From Patescibacteria group bacterium (GTDB lineage: Bacteria > Patescibacteriota > Patescibacteriia > CAIXNZ01), in assembly GCA_041651155.1 (NCBI GenBank), contig JBAZJU010000001.1, positions 261,596 through 325,595 of the forward strand: a stretch of 64,000 bases of DNA, in the 5' to 3' direction. Of this stretch, positions 2,358-17,659 are shown one piece after another; the stretch's first letter is position 1; each line of letters starts with the position of its first letter. The translations under genes were made by a program, and so were the position numbers. Under the pieces are notes generated by a model. That model was not told the origin of the DNA. It worked only from the letters and a program-made list of their open reading frames with translations, and did no database searches.

Positions 2358-3746
2358 TTATATTTTTAATTCGCGATCCTGCTGATAGGTCAGATTATTT
2401 TTTAAGGCTAATTCAGCTTTCATTAATTCTCTGCCCAAATCCAAAGCATGCAAGATCTCGCTGATAAAAGTAAAAATTTGGTTATTAATTTCTGTGGCAG
2501 TTGCGCCTGAAAATTTTTGGATAAATTGGCCGGTGGGAGAATAGTGGCTGACGATTATTTTATCGTTTTCAAGTTGAATTTCAAAACTGCCTCTTGGGTC
2601 TTGGACGCATTCAGTGGGTGGTTTATGTTTGGCCACTGTTTCAGCGGCTGCTAAAAAATCTCTTTCGTAAATATGCGCCGAATTGGAAATAAAACAAAGT
2701 TTGCCCATTTTAACGCCTAATGCGTCAGCAATTTCTTTTTGGACTTTGCGCAAAGCAAAACAGTTTTGCGGCCAGGCTCTATACATATCATTAGAACGCA
2801 TATAGGTGGTTAAATAAAGTTTATCGCCCTGAATTAAGGCATTAACTAAATTGATGCAAGGACTTTTTGGGTTTCCAGTGTCTTTCATCACATCCCAGGT
2901 AAAGGCAATGGCGCGGCGGCTATAGCTATTAGCTTTTAAATCATTGATCAGGGCTTCAATCTGGTTAATGCCGTTAAAATTTCTTAAACGGCTGCCATAA
3001 GTGTATTCCACGCCTTCAAAAATGCGGTCAGTCATTAATTGCGGATAGTAATTTTCCAGATCTTGTTTGTTAAAATAAAGATAATCTGTCAGGTAAGGAT
3101 TGTCAGGGTCTTCATCACTGATTATGGTTGAGACATTGATTAATTCACGCTGCATTTCAGAATACTGGCACATTTTATTAACCCCAAATTTTAAAACGCG
3201 ATCCAAGATTTTTAACCACAAGTCAGCAATCTTTTTGTCTTCCAAGCGGAAGCATATTTCTTCAGAAGGGAAATCAATCTTTTCCCTTTGGGCTTGATCA
3301 GGAAAGTCAATTATTTCAGGCAGCCAGGCTGGGCTATTTTGGGGCTGCTCGCTAAGGAAATCATTAATTTTTTCCTCTGGAATAAAATGGGTGTTATTTT
3401 TAAACCAGTCAATAAATTGTTGGGTTTTTTCCGCTGGTATTTCTTTGTGTAAAACTTCCTGTCCTTGCCCTGCAGCTAGAAAATTTTCAAAAAATTTGAG
3501 ACTGCCGGAAAGGTCTTTGCCTGTCACAATTAATTTGGAGATTTTTGGATTTAAAAAAATATTGCGGATAATATAATTAATGCCTTCTTTGCTGTAAAGC
3601 TGGCCAATGGCGCCAATTTTGGCTTTATTGTCAGGAGAAATTAAATCATTAATGTGCTCTTTTTTGCTCCAGCCCGTAATAATGCCAAAATATCCTTCGG
3701 TTGAAGGTATTAAAATTTGGTTATTATAATATTTTGGCCAAGTCAT
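2358..3746 (-). CDS. thymidylate synthase (ThyA)-family enzyme with roughly 240-aa N-terminal extension
   Basis: C-terminal half has ThyA-like RRAIAFTWD ... PCINLVNALIQ...LYLTTYMRSNDMYRAWPQN (catalytic Cys context); 462 aa is far longer than typical ThyA. Confidence 0.6.
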   Translation of the reverse strand: MTWPKYYNNQILIPSTEGYFGIITGWSKKEHINDLISPDNKAKIGAIGQLYSKEGINYIIRNIFLNPKISKLIVTGKDLSGSLKFFENFLAAGQGQEVLHKEIPAEKTQQFIDWFKNNTHFIPEEKINDFLSEQPQNSPAWLPEIIDFPDQAQREKIDFPSEEICFRLEDKKIADLWLKILDRVLKFGVNKMCQYSEMQRELINVSTIISDEDPDNPYLTDYLYFNKQDLENYYPQLMTDRIFEGVEYTYGSRLRNFNGINQIEALINDLKANSYSRRAIAFTWDVMKDTGNPKSPCINLVNALIQGDKLYLTTYMRSNDMYRAWPQNCFALRKVQKEIADALGVKMGKLCFISNSAHIYERDFLAAAETVAKHKPPTECVQDPRGSFEIQLENDKIIVSHYSPTGQFIQKFSGATATEINNQIFTFISEILHALDLGRELMKAELALKNNLTYQQDRELKI

Positions 3747-11405: not shown

Positions 11406-12167
11406 ATGATAAATTACCAGGAATTAAAAAAAATAGGCCTATCAGACAAAGAGGCTAAATTATATTTGACTTCTTTGCAGCGCGGTCCGGAAACAGCGCC
11501 GACTTTGGCAAAGTTGTCAGACATTGTTAGACCGACTGCTTACGTGATTATTGATAGTTTAACGAAAAAGGGCTTAATGAGTTCTACTGCCAAAGGAAAG
11601 AAAACTTTTTATACTGCTGAGTCGCCAGAGCATCTTTTGAGCCTGATACGTCTGCAAAAAAGAGAAATTGAAGAAAAAGAAAGGGAAATTTTTAAATTGA
11701 TTCCGCAATTAGAGTTGCTTGCCAATATAAAAGGGGAAAAGCCTAAAGTCAGGGTTTTTGAAGGTAAAGAAGGCTTAAAAGCAGTCATAGAGAGTATTTT
11801 AAAAAGCAAGACCAAAATTATTTACAGTTTCATGCCAGCTGATCGGCTTTTTGATTTATTCCCAGCGGATGAACATAAAGAATTTATGGCCAGTCCCCGA
11901 GTCAAGAAAGGAATTAAAGGGAAGCTTTTATATACCAGTAAAAATGGACATATTTATAAAGCTAAAGATCCGCAAAATTTACGCGAGGCAACTTTTATTG
12001 ACCAGAAAGATTTTCCTTTTGATTGCGGGATTGATATCTATGACGATAATATTGCTTTTTACACGTATAAAGGAGCAATAATGGGGGTTGTAATTGAGAA
12101 TACAGATATTGCCAATACGATGAAAACAGTTTTTAATATGATTTGGGAAAAATATAATAGAAAATAA
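11406..12167 (+). CDS. TrmB-family transcriptional regulator
   Basis: N-terminal wHTH resembling TrmB (LSDKEAKLYLTSLQRGPETAPTLAK), 253 aa. Confidence 0.55.
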   Translation: MINYQELKKIGLSDKEAKLYLTSLQRGPETAPTLAKLSDIVRPTAYVIIDSLTKKGLMSSTAKGKKTFYTAESPEHLLSLIRLQKREIEEKEREIFKLIPQLELLANIKGEKPKVRVFEGKEGLKAVIESILKSKTKIIYSFMPADRLFDLFPADEHKEFMASPRVKKGIKGKLLYTSKNGHIYKAKDPQNLREATFIDQKDFPFDCGIDIYDDNIAFYTYKGAIMGVVIENTDIANTMKTVFNMIWEKYNRK

Positions 12168-12187
12168 TTTTTTTTGCGTAGAATCCT

Positions 12188-12218
12188 GAAAATGTCAATA
12201 GCTATTGACATTTTTTTT
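12188..12218 (+). terminator. 13-bp perfect inverted repeat + T8 (terminator, possibly also an operator)
   Basis: aaaatgtcaatag/ctattgacatttt then tttttttt. Confidence 0.5.
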
Positions 12219-12783
12219 AATTTATGGTAGAATACCAGATTGATTGTCGGAGGGGAGATACTTTTGGGCAAGGAGGTGAAATAATCATGGGAGCAGGATG
12301 AAATATCTCAAAGATGCCTAAAGGGCTGAGAACATGAACAGATTTAGTTAGTATAAAAAGTAAACCACTAGCTGACAAAATTAAAGGATTGTCCTTTGGC
12401 AAAATCAAGAAGCAAAACATGACAATAAGGAGAAGCGTACTTGAAAAAAAGAAGCAGACTCTGTCGTCTGGGCCGTTATAATTAAAGAAAAAATGGTTTG
12501 GCCTAGGCTGACTTATATGCGATGATTCAGTCCATATCCCATCAGGCTTATCAGAAGCAAGCCAGTAGATAAAGAATTAATGGGGTGGATAGAGAATCAA
12601 GTACTCAACGAGCAAAATGGCTTTCGGAAATTTCGCAAATGCGAAAAATCCGGAAGCCATTTTTTCTTTTCTAAAATTTTTTTTCAAATGTACAATCTAG
12701 TATAAATTGACTTTAATTTAATACAAATAACCTTTATTTTATGAGCCTTTTTAGCATTATTTTGAAATTTGGTATAAGGGGGC

Positions 12784-12818
12784 TTGACAAATTTTTTTAC
12801 TTATGCTAAGATGCTATA
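12784..12818 (+). promoter_or_regulatory. strong sigma70-like promoter at left edge of the Rsr island
   Basis: TTGACA aatttttttacttatgc TAAGAT gc TATATT. Confidence 0.55.
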
Positions 12819-12819
12819 T

Positions 12820-13828
12820 TAACTAAAAAAAGTTTCTGGAAAAAAAGTTAGCAGAGGGAATAGTACAAATAAGATTTTGCAGCATTGATCCCGAAAGCCC
12901 CAAGAATTGGGGATCAATCTGGTCTTATTTGCACTATCCTCTTTGTTAAAACAAAGAGTCCCATGCTTATCGCCGCTCTTTAAAAAAATAATTTCACTGC
13001 GTGCTTTTGCAGCTTTATAGAATTAAGGCTCCAGAATGGACGCAGTGAAAAATGCTGGTAGGAAAATTTTTCCTGCGGCTTGCCAAAATGAACTGGGAGT
13101 ATTTCCTACTCCCGAATCCTGGGTCACCTTGTTAATTATTGTCCTTAGATTATTGATCAGAGCAAATAAGTCCTGTAAAAAGGATAAATCAAAGATAAGC
13201 CAGGAATCTCAGTCGCTTGAAAAAGCAGCTGATTGGGAGAGGGAAATCTCCGACGACTTATCTGCGATTTCAGCAATGATTATTTGCTTAAGGGATAAAA
13301 CCCGTGATCAATCGGAGGACTGCATAACGAGGTTACTTCAAAAACAATGAAGCTGGGCTTTCTCAGTTCATTTGGCAAGCACTAAACGCAAGTAAAAACA
13401 GTTAGTCGTTATAGCAAGAGATGACTAAACTGTTTTTACTTGGAGGAACAGCAATACTCTGGATTTCTTGCAGCTCTTTATCCCGCAAGGGAAACCTTAA
13501 TTTCTTTTTGCCTTCACTCTTTTGCTAAGAGCGATCATGCTCGCGGTGATTTCCCGGCAAAAGACTTGGGCTGCGAATTGAGGTTACTCCAATAAAAGAT
13601 TAATAACAGAGATCTGTTGCCAGAGTGTTGGCTGTTCCAAATTTTAAAATATCAAAGGGCTTTTACGCCCTTTTCTTAAACTCTATAATTTTTGTTGCTA
13701 TGTAATCCTTCGCGCTACATAGCAGAATAAAGGATTGTAGGATTTAAAAAACACATTAACTAAGCTAGTGTGCAAGGTACATTACAATTTTCAACCAACT
13801 AATAACTTAGGACAAAAGGAGGTCCCAG
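12820..13828 (+). ncRNA. about 1-kb ORF-poor structured transcript upstream of the Ro60/Rsr gene; candidate Y-RNA-like RNA(s), boundaries unknown
   Basis: no credible long ORF; many stable hairpins (12884-12918, 12996-13050, 13094-13112, 13395-13443 16-bp stem, 13665-13682, 13700-13726); immediately 5' of a TROVE-domain gene. Confidence 0.3.
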
Positions 13829-15508
13829 ATGAAGAATATTGCGAGATTGATTAAGTCAGTAAAGGCTGCCAACCAGGGCTCTCAAACTCATCCCAATAGG
13901 GAAGGGGCTCCGAGTTTCTATCGGAGTATAAAAGAGCAGGTTGTGCAGATCCTCACCACTGGGACCTTAAGCAACACCTTTTATGCCTCGACCGAGCAAC
14001 TCGGCAGGGAAGCCATAGAGGTTTTGTTGCAGGCAAGGCAAGAGTGTCCGGAATTTTTGGCTAAGGCCGTTGCCTATGCCAGGAATGAGGGACTACTCAA
14101 GTCAATGCCGGTCCTGGGGCTAGCGATGCTCTCCGGAGAGAGAAAGGCCAAGCAATACTTCCAGGCCACTTTTAATCAGGTAGTAAAAACGCCGGATGAT
14201 TTGAGGGCATTTGTACTGCTCTGCAAATCAGGCGTTATACCTGGGCGAAAGGGCTTGGGCGGGATGACTCGTGATGCGGTGGCGAACTGGCTGGGAAATC
14301 TTTCAGAGTATCACACGATGAAATACGGTTCGGCCGTTTCTCGTGAGATTACACTCAGAGATATACTTCGCTTAGCTCACCCCAAACCGCAAAACGAAGC
14401 TCTCTCCGAGCGTTTCGGCTACTTGGTTTCAGGGAAGCGGGCTTTGAGTGCAAACTCTGGTCTTAATCCCCAGATTCGCATGCTGGAAACTTTGAAGCGG
14501 GCGACTACTGAAGAAGAGACGCTGAACCTCGTGCGCGAGGGTAAGCTGCCTTTTGAAGTAGTCATTCCTGCGGTTAAAGCGACCACGCCTGCAATCTGGT
14601 CAGCTCTGCTTCATAACGCGCCCTACTTTAACTTGCTGAGAAATTTGGTGACGTTCACGCGCCATCAGGTTTTTTTAAGCGAGGCAGAGGTAGAGTACGC
14701 TGTGCAGCGGCTGACTGACGCCAGAGCTGTCGAGCGTTCGAAAGTGTTGCCGTTCCGGTACTTCCAGGCCTGGCAGCAGTATGTGGCGATGGAAAATCCA
14801 GACAGCCTGATCGCAGATGCACTGCGACAGGCTTTGGAGCTTTCCTTTGTTAACATGCCATCGCTGGGTTCTTGCCAGATTGCGATCGGTACTGATACTA
14901 GTGGTTCAATGGGCAGTCAGGTCTCTGAAAAGAGCTCGACTCGTTTCATTGATATCGCAGGTATCTTTACCGGTGCATTACTGCGCAAGGCAGAAGGCCG
15001 GGTTATTCCTTTACCTTTCGACACCGAGATCCACATCAACCATGGTCTTTCTGGCCGTGATGAAATACTCACGACTACTGATAAGATCAGCCATTGGTGT
15101 GGCGGTGGCACTGCGGTTGGCGCGCCGATACAGTTCCTACTTGATCGACGGATTTCCGTTGATGTCTTTATTGGCATCACTGATCAGGAGGAATGGGCGT
15201 ATGGCGGCGGATATCCCTGTCGTGGGAGTTTCCTTGACTTGTGGCACGAGTACCGCAAGCAGGTTAACCCTCATTGCAAGGCATATCTGGTAACCATTGC
15301 CCCGTATCGAGACGCGGTTGCACCGCAGGGCGAGGAAGGTATTCGTTTCACCTACGGATGGAACGACAGCGTGCTCGGTTACATTGCCAATGATCTGGCA
15401 GGCGGCGCAAGCCAAATCCAGGCCATTGAGCAAATGGAGCTTGAGTTCGTTGGGGATAACGGTCCGCTTTCCGAGACCGCTAGCGAGGACGCGCAGATTG
15501 AAGATTAA
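13829..15508 (+). CDS. rsr: Ro60-like TROVE-domain protein with C-terminal vWA/MIDAS domain (Rsr ortholog)
   Basis: 559 aa; RBS aaaggagg; helical N-terminal domain, then IAIGTDTSGSMGS (DxSxS MIDAS) as in Ro60/Rsr; G/C-rich codon usage. Confidence 0.7.
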   Translation: MKNIARLIKSVKAANQGSQTHPNREGAPSFYRSIKEQVVQILTTGTLSNTFYASTEQLGREAIEVLLQARQECPEFLAKAVAYARNEGLLKSMPVLGLAMLSGERKAKQYFQATFNQVVKTPDDLRAFVLLCKSGVIPGRKGLGGMTRDAVANWLGNLSEYHTMKYGSAVSREITLRDILRLAHPKPQNEALSERFGYLVSGKRALSANSGLNPQIRMLETLKRATTEEETLNLVREGKLPFEVVIPAVKATTPAIWSALLHNAPYFNLLRNLVTFTRHQVFLSEAEVEYAVQRLTDARAVERSKVLPFRYFQAWQQYVAMENPDSLIADALRQALELSFVNMPSLGSCQIAIGTDTSGSMGSQVSEKSSTRFIDIAGIFTGALLRKAEGRVIPLPFDTEIHINHGLSGRDEILTTTDKISHWCGGGTAVGAPIQFLLDRRISVDVFIGITDQEEWAYGGGYPCRGSFLDLWHEYRKQVNPHCKAYLVTIAPYRDAVAPQGEEGIRFTYGWNDSVLGYIANDLAGGASQIQAIEQMELEFVGDNGPLSETASEDAQIED

Positions 15509-15871
15509 CCATGGGGTTAGTCTTCACTTCCAAATGGAAGTCCCACATCAGACTGCGCGAAGCTCTGTTTCCGCATTGCGGAGATCTTTACCTTTACTGC
15601 GGTTAATGTGATGCCACACGTTTTCTGCGGTTCTGTGTGATGACCAGAGAGCACCCTGGGTCTAAAAGACCGAAACCAATTGTTTAGACTTTAATGTCTG
15701 ACAATTGTCCCAAATGGGATCAGGGATAAATTAAGTGGGAGAACGTAGATTCTTCCAGGGTGACAAAAAGTCACCCTGTTCATTCAAAGCTTGTAAATAC
15801 TTGTAGGTTTTGAAGGTAACATCAGATTTGCTGGTGTTAAAAAGTAAATTGAAAAAATAGGGAGGTGCTAA

Positions 15872-16921
15872 ATGATTTATACAGATACAGCTTTACTAAA
15901 TTTAAATCCTGCAGATTTAGCGCAAGCAGATGACGCGGAAATCAATGCGCTTAGAAAACTTCTGCACCAAATGTGGGATGAGAGCAAGGGAGATGATAAA
16001 AAATACCATCGAGCTATTTGGGAACTCTGGGGTAGCTTATCTTATCCTTTCACGTCCACGGAAGTTGCTGAATATCAGGCAGAGAGAGAACTCACGCCTC
16101 GCCAGGCTTGGATTAAAAACTATAACGAGCGATTTAAGCCGGATAGTGATATTCTTTGCCTTAGCGATGCCGAGTTCGATGAAGTCTTTCGGCTTCTGCT
16201 TCGGCCTTATTCGGAAATTTATCAGCGTCTTGATGAACTAACGTCAAAACGCTGGAATCCTTTCCAGGCTGAATATTTGTATGAACTTGAACATATGACT
16301 TTCCCGATCTGTAAGCGGGATAGCTGGCTGGTCAGCAAAATCATGCAATATGATTTGGATGACTATAAAACCAGGATACTTCCTCACCTCGGTCTTAAGA
16401 CCGAATGGCAGGAAGAGTCTGATGCCGAATATGAGGAATATCTTCTTGAGCTTTCTAATCGTAGCCTCTGGAGAAAATCTATTGACAAACTGAGATCTTG
16501 GAAATGGAGAATTAAATCTCTGTTTCAGAAACGTGAAAGTCCCTGGGAGCAACCTGGCATTCAGCAAGCCCTAACAGGCAGCATCTATGAGCAATCTCCG
16601 AGTGCATATGTACAGCTTAGATTCAGACGGGGTTATCACGAATTACCTGATCTAGTTTTTGTTCCCTTGGTACCTCTGGAATATTTCCGTCTTTCGTTCA
16701 ATGGGCATGCTCTCTGCGGGTATGCTTACGGTCCTTGTTATTCTGAATATGGCATGCTTGACATGCTCGACAATTTTACCGGCAATGACGATGATTGGCG
16801 ATTCATGGACGGTTTTAGTTACGAATTCAATCCGGTCAATTCATTTCCATGGAAGGATGAATTACCGGGTAATCCTGACCGCCTTTCGAATGATCATCGC
16901 ATTGAATGCCGTTATTATTGA
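15872..16921 (+). CDS. hypothetical protein (Trp/Tyr-rich), co-oriented with rsr
   Basis: 349 aa ORF with RBS gggagg; followed by terminator hairpin. Confidence 0.5.
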   Translation: MIYTDTALLNLNPADLAQADDAEINALRKLLHQMWDESKGDDKKYHRAIWELWGSLSYPFTSTEVAEYQAERELTPRQAWIKNYNERFKPDSDILCLSDAEFDEVFRLLLRPYSEIYQRLDELTSKRWNPFQAEYLYELEHMTFPICKRDSWLVSKIMQYDLDDYKTRILPHLGLKTEWQEESDAEYEEYLLELSNRSLWRKSIDKLRSWKWRIKSLFQKRESPWEQPGIQQALTGSIYEQSPSAYVQLRFRRGYHELPDLVFVPLVPLEYFRLSFNGHALCGYAYGPCYSEYGMLDMLDNFTGNDDDWRFMDGFSYEFNPVNSFPWKDELPGNPDRLSNDHRIECRYY

Positions 16922-16930
16922 TTATTTGCA

Positions 16931-16976
16931 CCCCACCAGATCAGCCCTCGGGCCTCTGGTGGGGTTATTCATTTTC
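16931..16976 (+). terminator. intrinsic terminator
   Basis: ccccaccaga...tctggtgggg 10-bp stem then T-rich. Confidence 0.5.
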
Positions 16977-17074
16977 AAACCTCCTTGGGTGCTGTGAAAA
17001 AATGGAACAAAGAAGTGGTTTCCCAAACAGCAACCCTTAACAATTGGCTAGAATGCCAATGAGGAGGTAAAATT

Positions 17075-17659
17075 ATGTGGAGTGATAATGGTTTAGCGAG
17101 TGAGCATCTTCAACCAAATTTTCCTAAAAATGTTTGGAGAGCTCTCTACCGGCATCTATGTGGGATTGATCCTAATTGGTGTACAGCTCATTTCATATTC
17201 GATGAAAAATGTGAGATCATTAGGTCATTCTTTAATGGTCCAAAATTTGGAGATTTTGGATCTTTAGTAAAACTCCCTAAACTTCTAAGGGGACAATTTT
17301 TTGAACGGTTGAAAACATACATGTTAGCACATCCATATAAATCTAACATTGTCGGCGATACCCGTTATGGTATCAAATTCTATAACCCTAGCTACAAAAT
17401 TGAACTCATCAATGGCCGAACGGAAATTGTCTTTGAACATTGTGTTGAGGGAATTGTTCAAAACTATAACCCTCAAAAACATACTTTTGAGATTCAAAAT
17501 CTGCGCGACATGTTTAGCGGGAAATCTGAAATGAGGGTTATTGATGGGAAGACATGGAATCAGTCCTGGAAAATGACAATGCAGGAACTTAAGCAACAGC
17601 TTAAGGATGATGGCCCTAATTTTCAGGCAACTGAAATATGCTATTTACCCCCAAAATAA
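17075..17659 (+). CDS. hypothetical protein
   Basis: 194 aa ORF with RBS gaggagg. Confidence 0.5.
   Translation: MWSDNGLASEHLQPNFPKNVWRALYRHLCGIDPNWCTAHFIFDEKCEIIRSFFNGPKFGDFGSLVKLPKLLRGQFFERLKTYMLAHPYKSNIVGDTRYGIKFYNPSYKIELINGRTEIVFEHCVEGIVQNYNPQKHTFEIQNLRDMFSGKSEMRVIDGKTWNQSWKMTMQELKQQLKDDGPNFQATEICYLPPK

What the first reader, a model, noticed from the sequence alone, without database searches (positions are those of the whole stretch)
12820..13828. 1-kb ORF-poor, hairpin-dense transcribed region directly upstream of rsr
A strong promoter sits at 12784. The hairpins include attgatccc/gggatcaat (12884-12918), cactgcgt/acgcagtg (12996-13050), gggagta/tactccc (13094-13112), a near-perfect 16-bp stem (13395-13443), aagggc/gccctt (13665-13682) and gctatgta/tacatagc (13700-13726). 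The only ORF (13036-13350, 104 aa) has a weak RBS and no recognisable motif. Such density of local structure in an untranslated kilobase is unusual for this compact genome and fits one or more structured RNAs. I could not identify a canonical Ro-binding helix by eye.
Basis: seen in the sequence. Interest (0 to 1): 0.65.

Follow-up and report, generated by a model that had tools for sequence, protein, structure and literature searches.

The report
Rearranged Y-RNA-like modules upstream of rsr
The gene-free kilobase upstream of the Ro60/Rsr gene encodes a conserved, highly structured non-coding RNA with two tandem modules that look like Y RNAs (the known Ro partners) but are wired in a circularly permuted order not described before.

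Summary
Window 12820-13828 is non-coding, folds far better than shuffles (z -4 to -8), and is conserved upstream of rsr in related CPR/Parcubacteria genomes.

A conserved promoter (12784-12812) and an intrinsic terminator (13654-13680) bound a transcript of about 860 nt. It holds four domains:
- a 105-nt bulged hairpin (12846-12951)
- a 59-nt hairpin (12992-13050)
- module A (13078-13380)
- module B (13445-13638), homologous to A

Each module carries the strand GGRCUG-N2-N4-GAGG-UUACUUCRA. In Chloroflexi this same strand is the 5' strand of YrlA-type Y RNAs and precedes their tRNA-like domain.

In CPR loci its partner (CCUU-N4'-J-UUGYCC) lies upstream, sometimes across a 4-5 nt loop. N4/N4' is fully complementary in 22 of 27 anchor-defined cases, against 18% for random re-pairing. 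The presumed Rsr-binding helix therefore caps a closed arm instead of joining the RNA's ends.

There is no tRNA-like domain, no GNCGAA motif and no Rfam match. Rsr binding is inferred, not shown. I rate this a new variant of a known kind, of moderate to high interest.

The parts
12784..12812 (+). Sigma-70-type promoter: TTGACA, 17-nt spacer, TGnTAAGAT extended -10
   Evidence: Promoter scan, 10/12 match with TG. CTTGACAAA...TGCTAAG is nearly invariant in 6 loci although the flanks diverge.
12846..12951 (+). Element 1: 105-nt long hairpin with conserved 1x1 internal loops and a variable tip
   Evidence: z -5.4. RNAalifold gives 32 pairs, 10 with compensatory changes. Model R1 finds it only in window, L001, L082, L002, L005, L006 and L003.
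12963..12975 (+). Conserved linker ATGCTTATCG
   Evidence: Conserved block in alignment A2.
12992..13050 (+). Element 2: hairpin with an 11-bp base stem and conserved loop GCUUUAU..UAAGGC
   Evidence: z -6.4. The base stem covaries: CACUGCG/CGCAGUG versus CUCUGCG/CGCAGAG or CGCAGGG. In L003 a small basic ORF takes its place.
13078..13380 (+). Module A, about 303 nt. Closing helix P1: 13078-13087 with 13371-13380. 5' hairpin: 13095-13112. Ro-type arm: S2 13127-13134 with 13325-13332, and S3 13141-13144 with 13317-13320. A structured 172-nt insertion (13145-13316) caps S3. Tail UUACUUCAA: 13333-13341. 3' hairpin: about 13346-13370.
   Evidence: RNAalifold on 7 loci recovers P1, S2, S3 and four inner hairpins; 16 of 46 pairs are compensatory. 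MFE z -6.5. Coordinates checked.
13389..13442 (+). Clade-specific 22-bp hairpin between the two modules
   Evidence: z -8.2. Present in L001 and L082, absent from L002, L005 and L006.
13445..13638 (+). Module B, about 194 nt. Closing helix P1': 13445-13462 with 13620-13638. 5' hairpin: 13481-13492. S2: 13495-13502 with 13576-13583. S3: 13510-13513 with 13568-13571. Apical insertion of 54 nt. Tail UUACUCCAA: 13584-13592. 3' hairpin: 13605-13618.
   Evidence: MFE z -5.3. Model R2 hit at 13491-13592, E 4e-6. S2 and S3 covary. The homologous minimal versions in L002, L005 and L006 (105-117 nt) fold the same way, z -4.1 to -5.6.
13654..13680 (+). Intrinsic terminator: AAAGGGC-loop-GCCCUUU followed by UCUU
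   Evidence: z -4.0. Non-homologous terminator hairpins sit at the same place in L002/L005/L006 (GGCCAGG..CCUGGCC+U5) and in L003 (UCAGUCG..CGACUGA+U7).
13733..13828 (+). Conserved rsr-proximal block: TTGTAGG, inverted repeat CACATTA..TAGTGTG (13752-13773), ACATTACAA, and RBS AAGGAGG
   Evidence: Conserved in all 7 loci. Its function, as rsr promoter/operator or as 5' UTR, was not tested.
13829..15508 (+). rsr (Ro60 orthologue: TROVE plus vWA domains)
   Evidence: Pfam TROVE 2.4e-15 and vWA_Ro60 3.8e-9. NCBIfam Rsr 1e-23, below its curated cutoff. 294 homologues found, mostly from CPR.

Best explanation
The region is a dedicated non-coding RNA gene. A conserved promoter at 12784 drives a transcript of about 860 nt that ends at the terminator at 13654-13680, upstream of a separate conserved rsr-proximal block.

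The transcript holds two leader hairpins (elements 1 and 2) and two tandem homologous modules, A and B. Each module displays a Y-RNA-type Rsr (Ro60) binding helix at the far end of a long arm:
- S3: UUG-YCC paired with GGR-CUG
- an asymmetric internal loop
- S2: CCUU-N4 paired with N4'-GAGG
- an invariant single-stranded UUACUUCRA after S2

The likely mechanism, by analogy with Yrn1 and YrlA, is that each module binds one Rsr ring through the GGRCUG strand and helix. The remaining parts would then gate Rsr or tether it to a partner. Those parts are the UUACUUCRA junction, the flanking hairpins and the 172-nt structured insertion in A.

Compared with all characterised Y RNAs the module is circularly permuted. 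The binding helix is closed by a loop or an insertion, and the RNA's ends emerge from a distal closing helix (P1).

Shown here: the structure, its conservation and covariation, its association with rsr on the same strand, and the sequence and architecture similarity of the conserved strand to the YrlA 5' strand.

Inferred: transcription limits, processing into separate RNAs, Rsr binding, and the gate or tether role.
For: Non-coding and structured:
- MFE z-scores of -4 to -8.
- The ORF is not conserved.
- A gene-free gap of 0.8-2.3 kb lies upstream of rsr in L001, L002 and L003.

Covariation:
- Element 1: 10 of 32 pairs compensatory.
- Module A: 16 of 46 pairs compensatory, including P1.
- S2 and S3 over 25 instances: 57 double-change cells against 20.2 +/- 3.9 in shuffles; slid controls pair in 26-56% of cells against 99% observed.
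- Unbiased anchor-only test: the nearest upstream CCUU-N4..UUGYCC has N4 fully complementary in 22 of 27 cases, against 18% for random re-pairing and 2 of 15 for the nearest downstream partner.

Association with rsr:
- The exact motif GAGGYTACTYC occurs in 19 of 82 rsr loci, always on the rsr strand.
- The R2 core model gives 25 hits, all on the rsr strand and all in CPR loci. The window's only R2 hit is module B; module A, with its 172-nt insertion, is missed by R2 and was found by the anchor search.
- Hits also occur in the later-fetched loci L083 and L084.
- Two copies lie directly upstream of a TROVE gene on a viral contig.

Link to Y RNA:
- In Chloroflexi L047 the same strand (GAGGCGCUGUCGGGAGUUACUUCG) is followed at once by a YrlA tRNA-like domain (Rfam RF02553 positions 24-84, E 1.7e-6). 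It pairs with a downstream strand ending AUAUU-CCCUCUAC.
- L046 and L049 carry GGCCGAAUCGGU-GGGGUUCCUUCGAA, which contains the published GNCGAA motif (PMC4201824).
- Canonical-order mini versions exist in CPR loci L013 and L023.
Against: - There are no expression, processing or binding data.
- The published Rsr-recognition motif GNCGAAN0-1G is absent; the modules have GGRCUG instead.
- The Rfam YrlA model gives no hit even at E<=10.
- There is no T arm or D arm: no GUUCRA occurs in 12100-13828 on either strand.
- Similarity to the Y RNA binding site rests on short motifs plus architecture.
- Elements 1 and 2 have no assigned role.
- The instances in alignment A6 were chosen by pairing, so its 99% paired figure is circular. 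The anchor-only test is the unbiased one.
Confidence: 0.7

Rival explanations
1. The region is a cis-acting 5' leader of the rsr mRNA, such as a riboswitch, attenuator or protein-binding autoregulatory leader, rather than a trans-acting RNA. The modules would sense a ligand or Rsr itself and control read-through at the 13654 terminator.
For: It lies directly upstream of rsr on the same strand. A terminator hairpin sits between the structured RNA and rsr in all three clades, which fits attenuation geometry. Rsr binding its own leader would also explain the Y-like site.
Against: In L008, L015, L020, L022 and L003 (third copy) the same module lies downstream of rsr. A conserved promoter-like block separates the terminator from the rsr RBS. 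At about 860 nt with two repeated modules, it is unlike known leaders. No Rfam cis-regulatory family matches.
Confidence: 0.12
2. It is a large ornate RNA whose job does not depend on Rsr, comparable to orphan classes such as ROOL, GOLLD or raiA. It would sit next to rsr only because both travel on the same island.
For: Module A is about 300 nt with many covarying helices. The rsr-to-17000 segment has 44-52% GC against about 36% for the rest of the window. Downstream genes are uncharacterised.
Against: The core motif follows rsr across CPR, Chloroflexi, Bacillota and a viral contig in different gene contexts, on either side of rsr. In Chloroflexi it forms part of YrlA-like RNAs. There are no Rfam hits to the large ornate RNA families.
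Confidence: 0.1
3. The region encodes the 104-aa ORF at 13036-13350, or other small proteins, and the hairpins are incidental.
For: An ATG ORF of 104 aa exists. Gene callers placed ORFs over the equivalent region in L084.
Against: The ORF is disrupted in genomes whose Rsr is 94-95% identical, and no ORF is shared across clades. It has no Pfam hit. Substitutions follow base-pairing, not codons.
Confidence: 0.02

Closest known systems
YrlA-type bacterial Y RNAs (Rfam RF02553; Chen et al. 2014, PMC4201824)
   Same: It is encoded within about 1 kb of rsr on the same strand. It has a conserved purine-rich strand, then a short linker, then a G-rich stem strand, then YUAY (YrlA: GGCGAA-UGCU-UGGGGAA-CUAC; here: GGACUG-CA-UAACGAGG-UUAC). 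The opposite strand ends in UU(G) followed by a C-rich stem strand. An asymmetric internal loop separates the two helices. Copies occur in tandem.
   Different: The partner strand lies upstream, so the binding helix is closed by a loop or insertion rather than formed by the RNA's 5' and 3' ends. There are no T, D or acceptor-like arms and no GNCGAA motif. The Rfam model does not hit. The modules are embedded in a transcript of about 860 nt together with two extra hairpin domains. Module A carries a 172-nt structured insertion where YrlA has its termini.
Simple Y RNAs without a full tRNA-like domain (S. Typhimurium YrlB, D. radiodurans Yrn1, metazoan Y RNAs)
   Same: Both are modular: a bulged helix for Ro60/Rsr plus loop regions that could contact a partner. 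Size is comparable, since the minimal module B in L002, L005 and L006 is about 105-117 nt. The GGUCCGA/UUGACC helix of metazoan Y RNAs resembles GGRCUG/UUGYCC.
   Different: The literature states that all characterised Y RNAs place the Ro site in the terminal stem (bioRxiv 10.1101/312249). Here it is apical. The invariant UUACUUCRA lies in a junction, not a loop. The exceptions are the canonical-order CPR variants in L013 and L023.
tRNA and circularly permuted tRNA genes
   Same: Module A has cloverleaf connectivity in tRNA order: closing helix, 5' hairpin, long arm, single-stranded YUAY segment, 3' hairpin, closing helix. YrlA has been described as resembling a circularly permuted tRNA, so this layout is the un-permuted order.
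   Different: There is no tRNA or tmRNA hit (ARAGORN and Rfam) and no T-loop or D-loop consensus. P1 is 10-18 bp. The flanking hairpins are missing from the minimal module B.

Membership tests
YrlA (Rfam RF02553) | Scores against the family covariance model | tested here: not met
   No hit at the gathering threshold in the window or in 16 CPR loci, and none at E<=10 in 12400-16000. As a positive control, L065 scores 75 bits.
YrlA (Rfam RF02553) | GNCGAAN0-1G motif near the 5' end (PMC4201824) | tested here: not met
   The equivalent position reads GGACUGCA in module A and GGGCUGCG in module B. It is GGRCUG across CPR instances.
YrlA (Rfam RF02553) | tRNA-like domain with T arm (GGUUCGA) and D arm (GUAGCUCA..GGUAGAGC) | tested here: not met
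   No GTTCRA in 12100-13828 on either strand. No tRNA or tmRNA hit.
YrlA (Rfam RF02553) | Encoded within 4 kb of the Ro60 orthologue on the same strand | tested here: met
   The modules end 190-450 nt upstream of rsr on the + strand. All 25 R2 hits are on the rsr strand.
Y RNA (general) | [quoted passage not shown] | tested here: not met
   The partner strand lies upstream and the helix is closed by a 4-5 nt loop (L002, L005, L006 module B) or by an insertion of up to 172 nt.
Y RNA (general) | Conserved bulged helix in which mainly one strand is conserved across species | tested here: met
   GGRCUG..GAGG.UACUUC is near-invariant. The N4 positions and the partner strand vary while keeping complementarity.
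Y RNA (general) | Physically bound by Ro60/Rsr | not testable with these tools
   Needs RIP/CLIP or EMSA.
Large ornate RNAs (ROOL, GOLLD, HEARO, OLE, raiA) | Match to the Rfam model | tested here: not met
   No hits.

The most novel reading that the evidence does not exclude
CPR bacteria use a previously unrecognised class of Rsr-associated RNA in which the Ro-binding helix sits at the tip of a closed arm within a cloverleaf-ordered fold, with the termini at an acceptor-like helix. This is the un-permuted, tRNA-order counterpart of YrlA. Two such units, one carrying a roughly 170-nt extra domain, would be made as a single precursor and could load two Rsr rings or bridge Rsr to an unknown partner. 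If true, it shows that the Ro site works independently of RNA ends, and it provides a missing link for the proposed tRNA origin of Y RNAs.
Probability: 0.3. Interest if true: 0.8.

Novelty: new variant of a known kind. Interest (0 to 1): 0.68.

Why it matters
Y RNAs are the obligate partners of Ro60, but bacterial examples are known mainly from the YrlA family, and none has been described for the CPR/Patescibacteria. This locus suggests that CPR Rsr proteins do have Y-like partners which existing models miss.

It also suggests that the Ro-binding helix can work when closed by a loop rather than formed by the RNA termini. That bears on how Ro60 recognises RNA and on the proposed evolution of Y RNAs from tRNA-like ancestors.

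The core model (R2) and the anchor pattern give an immediate way to annotate these RNAs. They would also remove spurious ORF calls over them, such as those in L084.

Tried and rejected
- Rfam at gathering and at E<=10 gave only chance-level hits: rimP, miRNA and psbA-3'UTR models matching generic hairpins.
- ARAGORN found no tRNA or tmRNA.
- I first guessed that UGGA upstream pairs with UYCA of the invariant tail. I dropped this once MFE folds and covariation showed that segment belongs to the closing helix P1'.
- I tested whether motif copy 1 pairs with the module B partner strand, which would be canonical tandem Y topology. N4 gives 1 of 4 pairs and S3 mismatches, so this is rejected.
- RNAduplex energies upstream versus downstream were too noisy to decide topology alone, so I replaced them with the anchor-only N4 test.
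- MAFFT on trimmed cores misaligned the variable linker; I redid it with fixed-length fields.
- RNAalifold on module B did not recover P1' because of 3'-end misalignment. P1' rests on single-sequence folds and on manual comparison (GGAUGU/ACAUCC versus GGGUGU/ACACCC).
- Model R1 hits in L015, L018 and L079 are generic long hairpins, not homologues.
- The metagenome scan with the single protein returned only one locus.
- Two encoding-contig look-ups returned no DNA.
- A possible T-loop-like YYCRAAN motif (13111-13117, CCCGAAU) could not be supported.
- PHROGs and NCBIfam gave nothing for the two downstream proteins.

Full report
**Context**

The window has about 36% GC. Its Rsr protein (13829-15508; TROVE plus Ro60-vWA domains) is 94-95% identical to proteins from Candidatus Parcubacteria MAGs. 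A TrmB-family regulator gene lies upstream at 11406-12167, followed by 1.66 kb without a credible gene. Relatives share this layout of TrmB gene, a gene-free gap of 0.8-2.3 kb, then rsr.

**Observation check**

All the listed hairpins are present, with small coordinate errors for the terminator hairpin, which is really at 13655-13672. Folding energies are far below those of dinucleotide shuffles:
- 12819-12990: z -5.4
- 13066-13388: z -6.5
- 13442-13640: z -5.3
- Individual hairpins: z -4.0 to -8.2

The 104-aa ORF is not maintained in L001 or L082, whose Rsr is 94-95% identical, nor in more distant loci. Rfam and ARAGORN find nothing in the window.

**Conservation**

blastn and MAFFT against loci with 70-76% identical Rsr (L002, L005, L006, L003) show conserved islands in otherwise diverged sequence:
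- the promoter CTTGACAAA..TGCTAAGAT
- element 1
- the linker ATGCTTATCG
- element 2
- two copies of RGGRCUG-N-GAGGUUACUUCAA
- a block just upstream of the rsr RBS

Each clade has a terminator hairpin plus U-tract after the second copy, but the three terminators are not homologous to one another. That argues the position matters, and that the structured RNA is a transcription unit of its own, about 12819-13680.

**Element 1 and element 2**

Element 1 (12846-12951) is a hairpin of about 45 bp with conserved 1x1 internal loops. Of its 32 predicted pairs, 10 show compensatory changes among only three or four lineages. Its covariance model (R1) finds it only in the three closest clades.

Element 2 (12992-13050) also covaries in its base stem. 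L003 has a 63-aa basic ORF in its place.

The roles of both elements are unknown. A 5' stabiliser or an RNase III processing site are guesses.

**The modules**

The two motif copies belong to homologous modules. In each module the strand GGRC-UG-N2-N4'-GAGG pairs with an upstream strand CCUU-N4-(J of 6-10 nt ending in UU)-GYCC. This forms S2 (8 bp) and S3 (4-6 bp), separated by an asymmetric internal loop.

S3 is capped as follows:
- 4-5 nt in module B of L002, L005 and L006
- 54 nt in window module B
- 172 nt in window module A

The capping insertion in module A is itself conserved and structured, for example CAAAUAA/UUAUUUG in the window against CAAUUAA/UUAAUUG in L002 (manual comparison of the sequences; these two pairings are not among the RNAalifold pairs). 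The hairpins inside it that RNAalifold recovers are listed.

A closing helix flanks each module:
- P1: GCUUGCCAAA/UUUGGCAAGC, which changes to GCCUGCCAC/GUGGCAGGC in L002, L005 and L006.
- P1': 18 bp in the window and 12 bp in L002, L005 and L006, with GGAUGU/ACAUCC changing to GGGUGU/ACACCC.

A hairpin usually sits immediately 5' of CCUU, and another follows the invariant tail.

**Statistical support for S2 and S3**

On 25 instances with linkers and apical parts trimmed to fixed length:
- 99.3% of cells pair.
- 57 cells show changes on both sides, against 20.2 +/- 3.9 in shuffles.
- Slid registers pair in only 26-56% of cells.

Those instances were chosen by pairing, so I repeated the test with partners defined only by conserved anchors. 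The nearest upstream anchor has fully complementary N4 in 22 of 27 cases and 3 of 4 pairs in four more. Random re-pairing gives 18% fully complementary, and the nearest downstream anchor gives 2 of 15. Pairing of motif copy 1 with the module B partner, which canonical tandem topology would require, gives 1 of 4.

**Link to rsr and to Y RNAs**

- The exact motif GAGGYTACTYC occurs in 19 of 82 rsr loci, always on the rsr strand.
- The core model R2 gives 25 hits, all on the rsr strand and all in CPR-type loci, located upstream or downstream of rsr. In the window it hits only module B; module A, with its 172-nt insertion, was found by the anchor search.
- Counting anchor-defined instances and two later loci, at least 23 of 27 loci with Rsr at least 52% identical carry a module.
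- A rsr-blind scan of viral contigs found 13 motif matches. Two of them lie directly upstream of a TROVE gene.
- Variants of the strand sit next to rsr in Chloroflexi (GAGGYGC-N4-GGRGUUACUUCG, in arrays of up to 8), in Bacillota, and in two MAGs with GGCCGAAUCGGU-GGGGUUCCUUCGAA, which contains the published GNCGAA motif (PMC4201824).
- In Chloroflexi L047 the strand is followed at once by a YrlA tRNA-like domain (Rfam RF02553 positions 24-84, E 1.7e-6). It pairs with a downstream strand CUUCCGGC-GAUAUU-CCCUCUAC. That is the same S2/J/S3 architecture in the canonical Y RNA order.
- The Rfam YrlA consensus (cGGCGAAUGCuuggGgaaCUAc ... uucCccaaAaAcUuGucGccg) has the same layout.

The CPR strand is therefore, most probably, the homologue of the Y RNA 5' (Ro-contacting) strand.

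**Topology**

The literature states that all characterised Y RNAs place the Ro60 site in a stem formed by the RNA's 5' and 3' ends, and that YrlA resembles a circularly permuted tRNA with a closed acceptor stem (bioRxiv 10.1101/312249). The CPR modules are the reverse: the Ro-type helix is closed, and the ends leave through P1.

In module A the order is P1, 5' hairpin, Ro arm, UUAC segment, 3' hairpin, P1. That is tRNA order, but no tRNA-like sequence features are present. Canonical-order mini versions also exist in CPR (L013 3545-3615 and L023), so the two topologies appear to be interconvertible.

**Mechanism**

By analogy with Yrn1 and YrlA (PMC4201824; 10.1101/312249), each module probably binds an Rsr ring via S3, J and S2. 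The other parts would gate Rsr or tether it to a partner. Two modules on one transcript could recruit two rings, or be processed apart at P1 and P1'. None of this was tested here.

**Rival explanations**

- A cis-acting leader is disfavoured, because modules lie downstream of rsr in several loci and a promoter-like block follows the terminator.
- An Rsr-independent ornate RNA is disfavoured, because the motif tracks rsr across phyla and contexts.
- Protein coding is excluded for practical purposes.

**Novelty**

There is no Rfam 15 match. The searchable literature has nothing on Y RNAs in CPR or on a permuted Ro site. I classify it as a new variant of a known kind.

Noticed in passing
window 12193-12210 and 12205-12233: A perfect palindrome, TGTCAATAGCTATTGACA, overlaps the -35 of a strong promoter-like site (TTGACA-17-TAGAAT, 11/12 match, with TG) just after the TrmB-family gene. 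The site is conserved in L001, L002, L005, L023 and L082. It may be an operator for the TrmB-like regulator, whose gene is syntenic with rsr in many loci.
   Followed up: partly
window 12236-12685: A roughly 450-nt cassette lies between that promoter and a long terminator hairpin (12605-12671 plus a U-tract). It folds well (z -4.1) and has only tiny ORFs. It is not conserved even in L001, which carries unrelated sequence there. It could be a variable sRNA or insertion.
   Followed up: partly
window 14000-17000: rsr and the next gene have 44-52% GC against about 36% for the rest of the window, which suggests a horizontally acquired segment. The downstream proteins (15872-16921 and 17075-17659) have no Pfam, PHROGs or NCBIfam match.
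   Followed up: partly
window 13737-13790 and 15803-15850; L082 5495, 6709, 7451, 7911; L001 8034, 9733; L005 6997, 8974: A repeated intergenic element, TTGTAGGNTTT...GAAAGTAACATC..GCTGGTGTTAAAAAGTAA, precedes rsr and several small downstream genes. It looks like a shared promoter of the form TTGAAG-17-TGnTAAAAA.
   Followed up: no
L003 332-523: A 63-aa lysine/arginine-rich ORF with a good RBS replaces element 2 between element 1 and module A in this relative.
   Followed up: no
L084 2965-3431: Public gene calls of 100 aa and 42 aa overlap a Y-like module (R2 hit at 3175-3278). They are probably spurious ORFs over a non-coding RNA.
   Followed up: no
L030 2486-3908; L031, L032, L040, L047: Chloroflexi loci carry arrays of 6-8 Y-type 5'-strand motifs spaced 140-290 nt apart upstream of rsr. 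Most score below the Rfam YrlA threshold, so many Y RNAs there are probably unannotated.
   Followed up: partly
L085, L086, L089 (IMGVR_UViG_3300035701_000006); L090 11551-13921: A 137-kb viral contig carries four copies of the motif. Another viral contig has two copies in canonical order directly upstream of a TROVE gene whose product is 43% identical to the window's Rsr.
   Followed up: partly
L007 3500-3668: This contig is labelled 'uncultured Gammaproteobacteria' but carries a CPR-type Rsr (61% identity) and a permuted module. The bin assignment may be wrong.
   Followed up: no
L009 8471-8611; L023 6119-6249: Rfam tmRNA hits of only 130-140 nt span the whole 374-position model near rsr in two CPR loci. 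They could be two-piece or reduced tmRNAs, or other tRNA-like RNAs.
   Followed up: no
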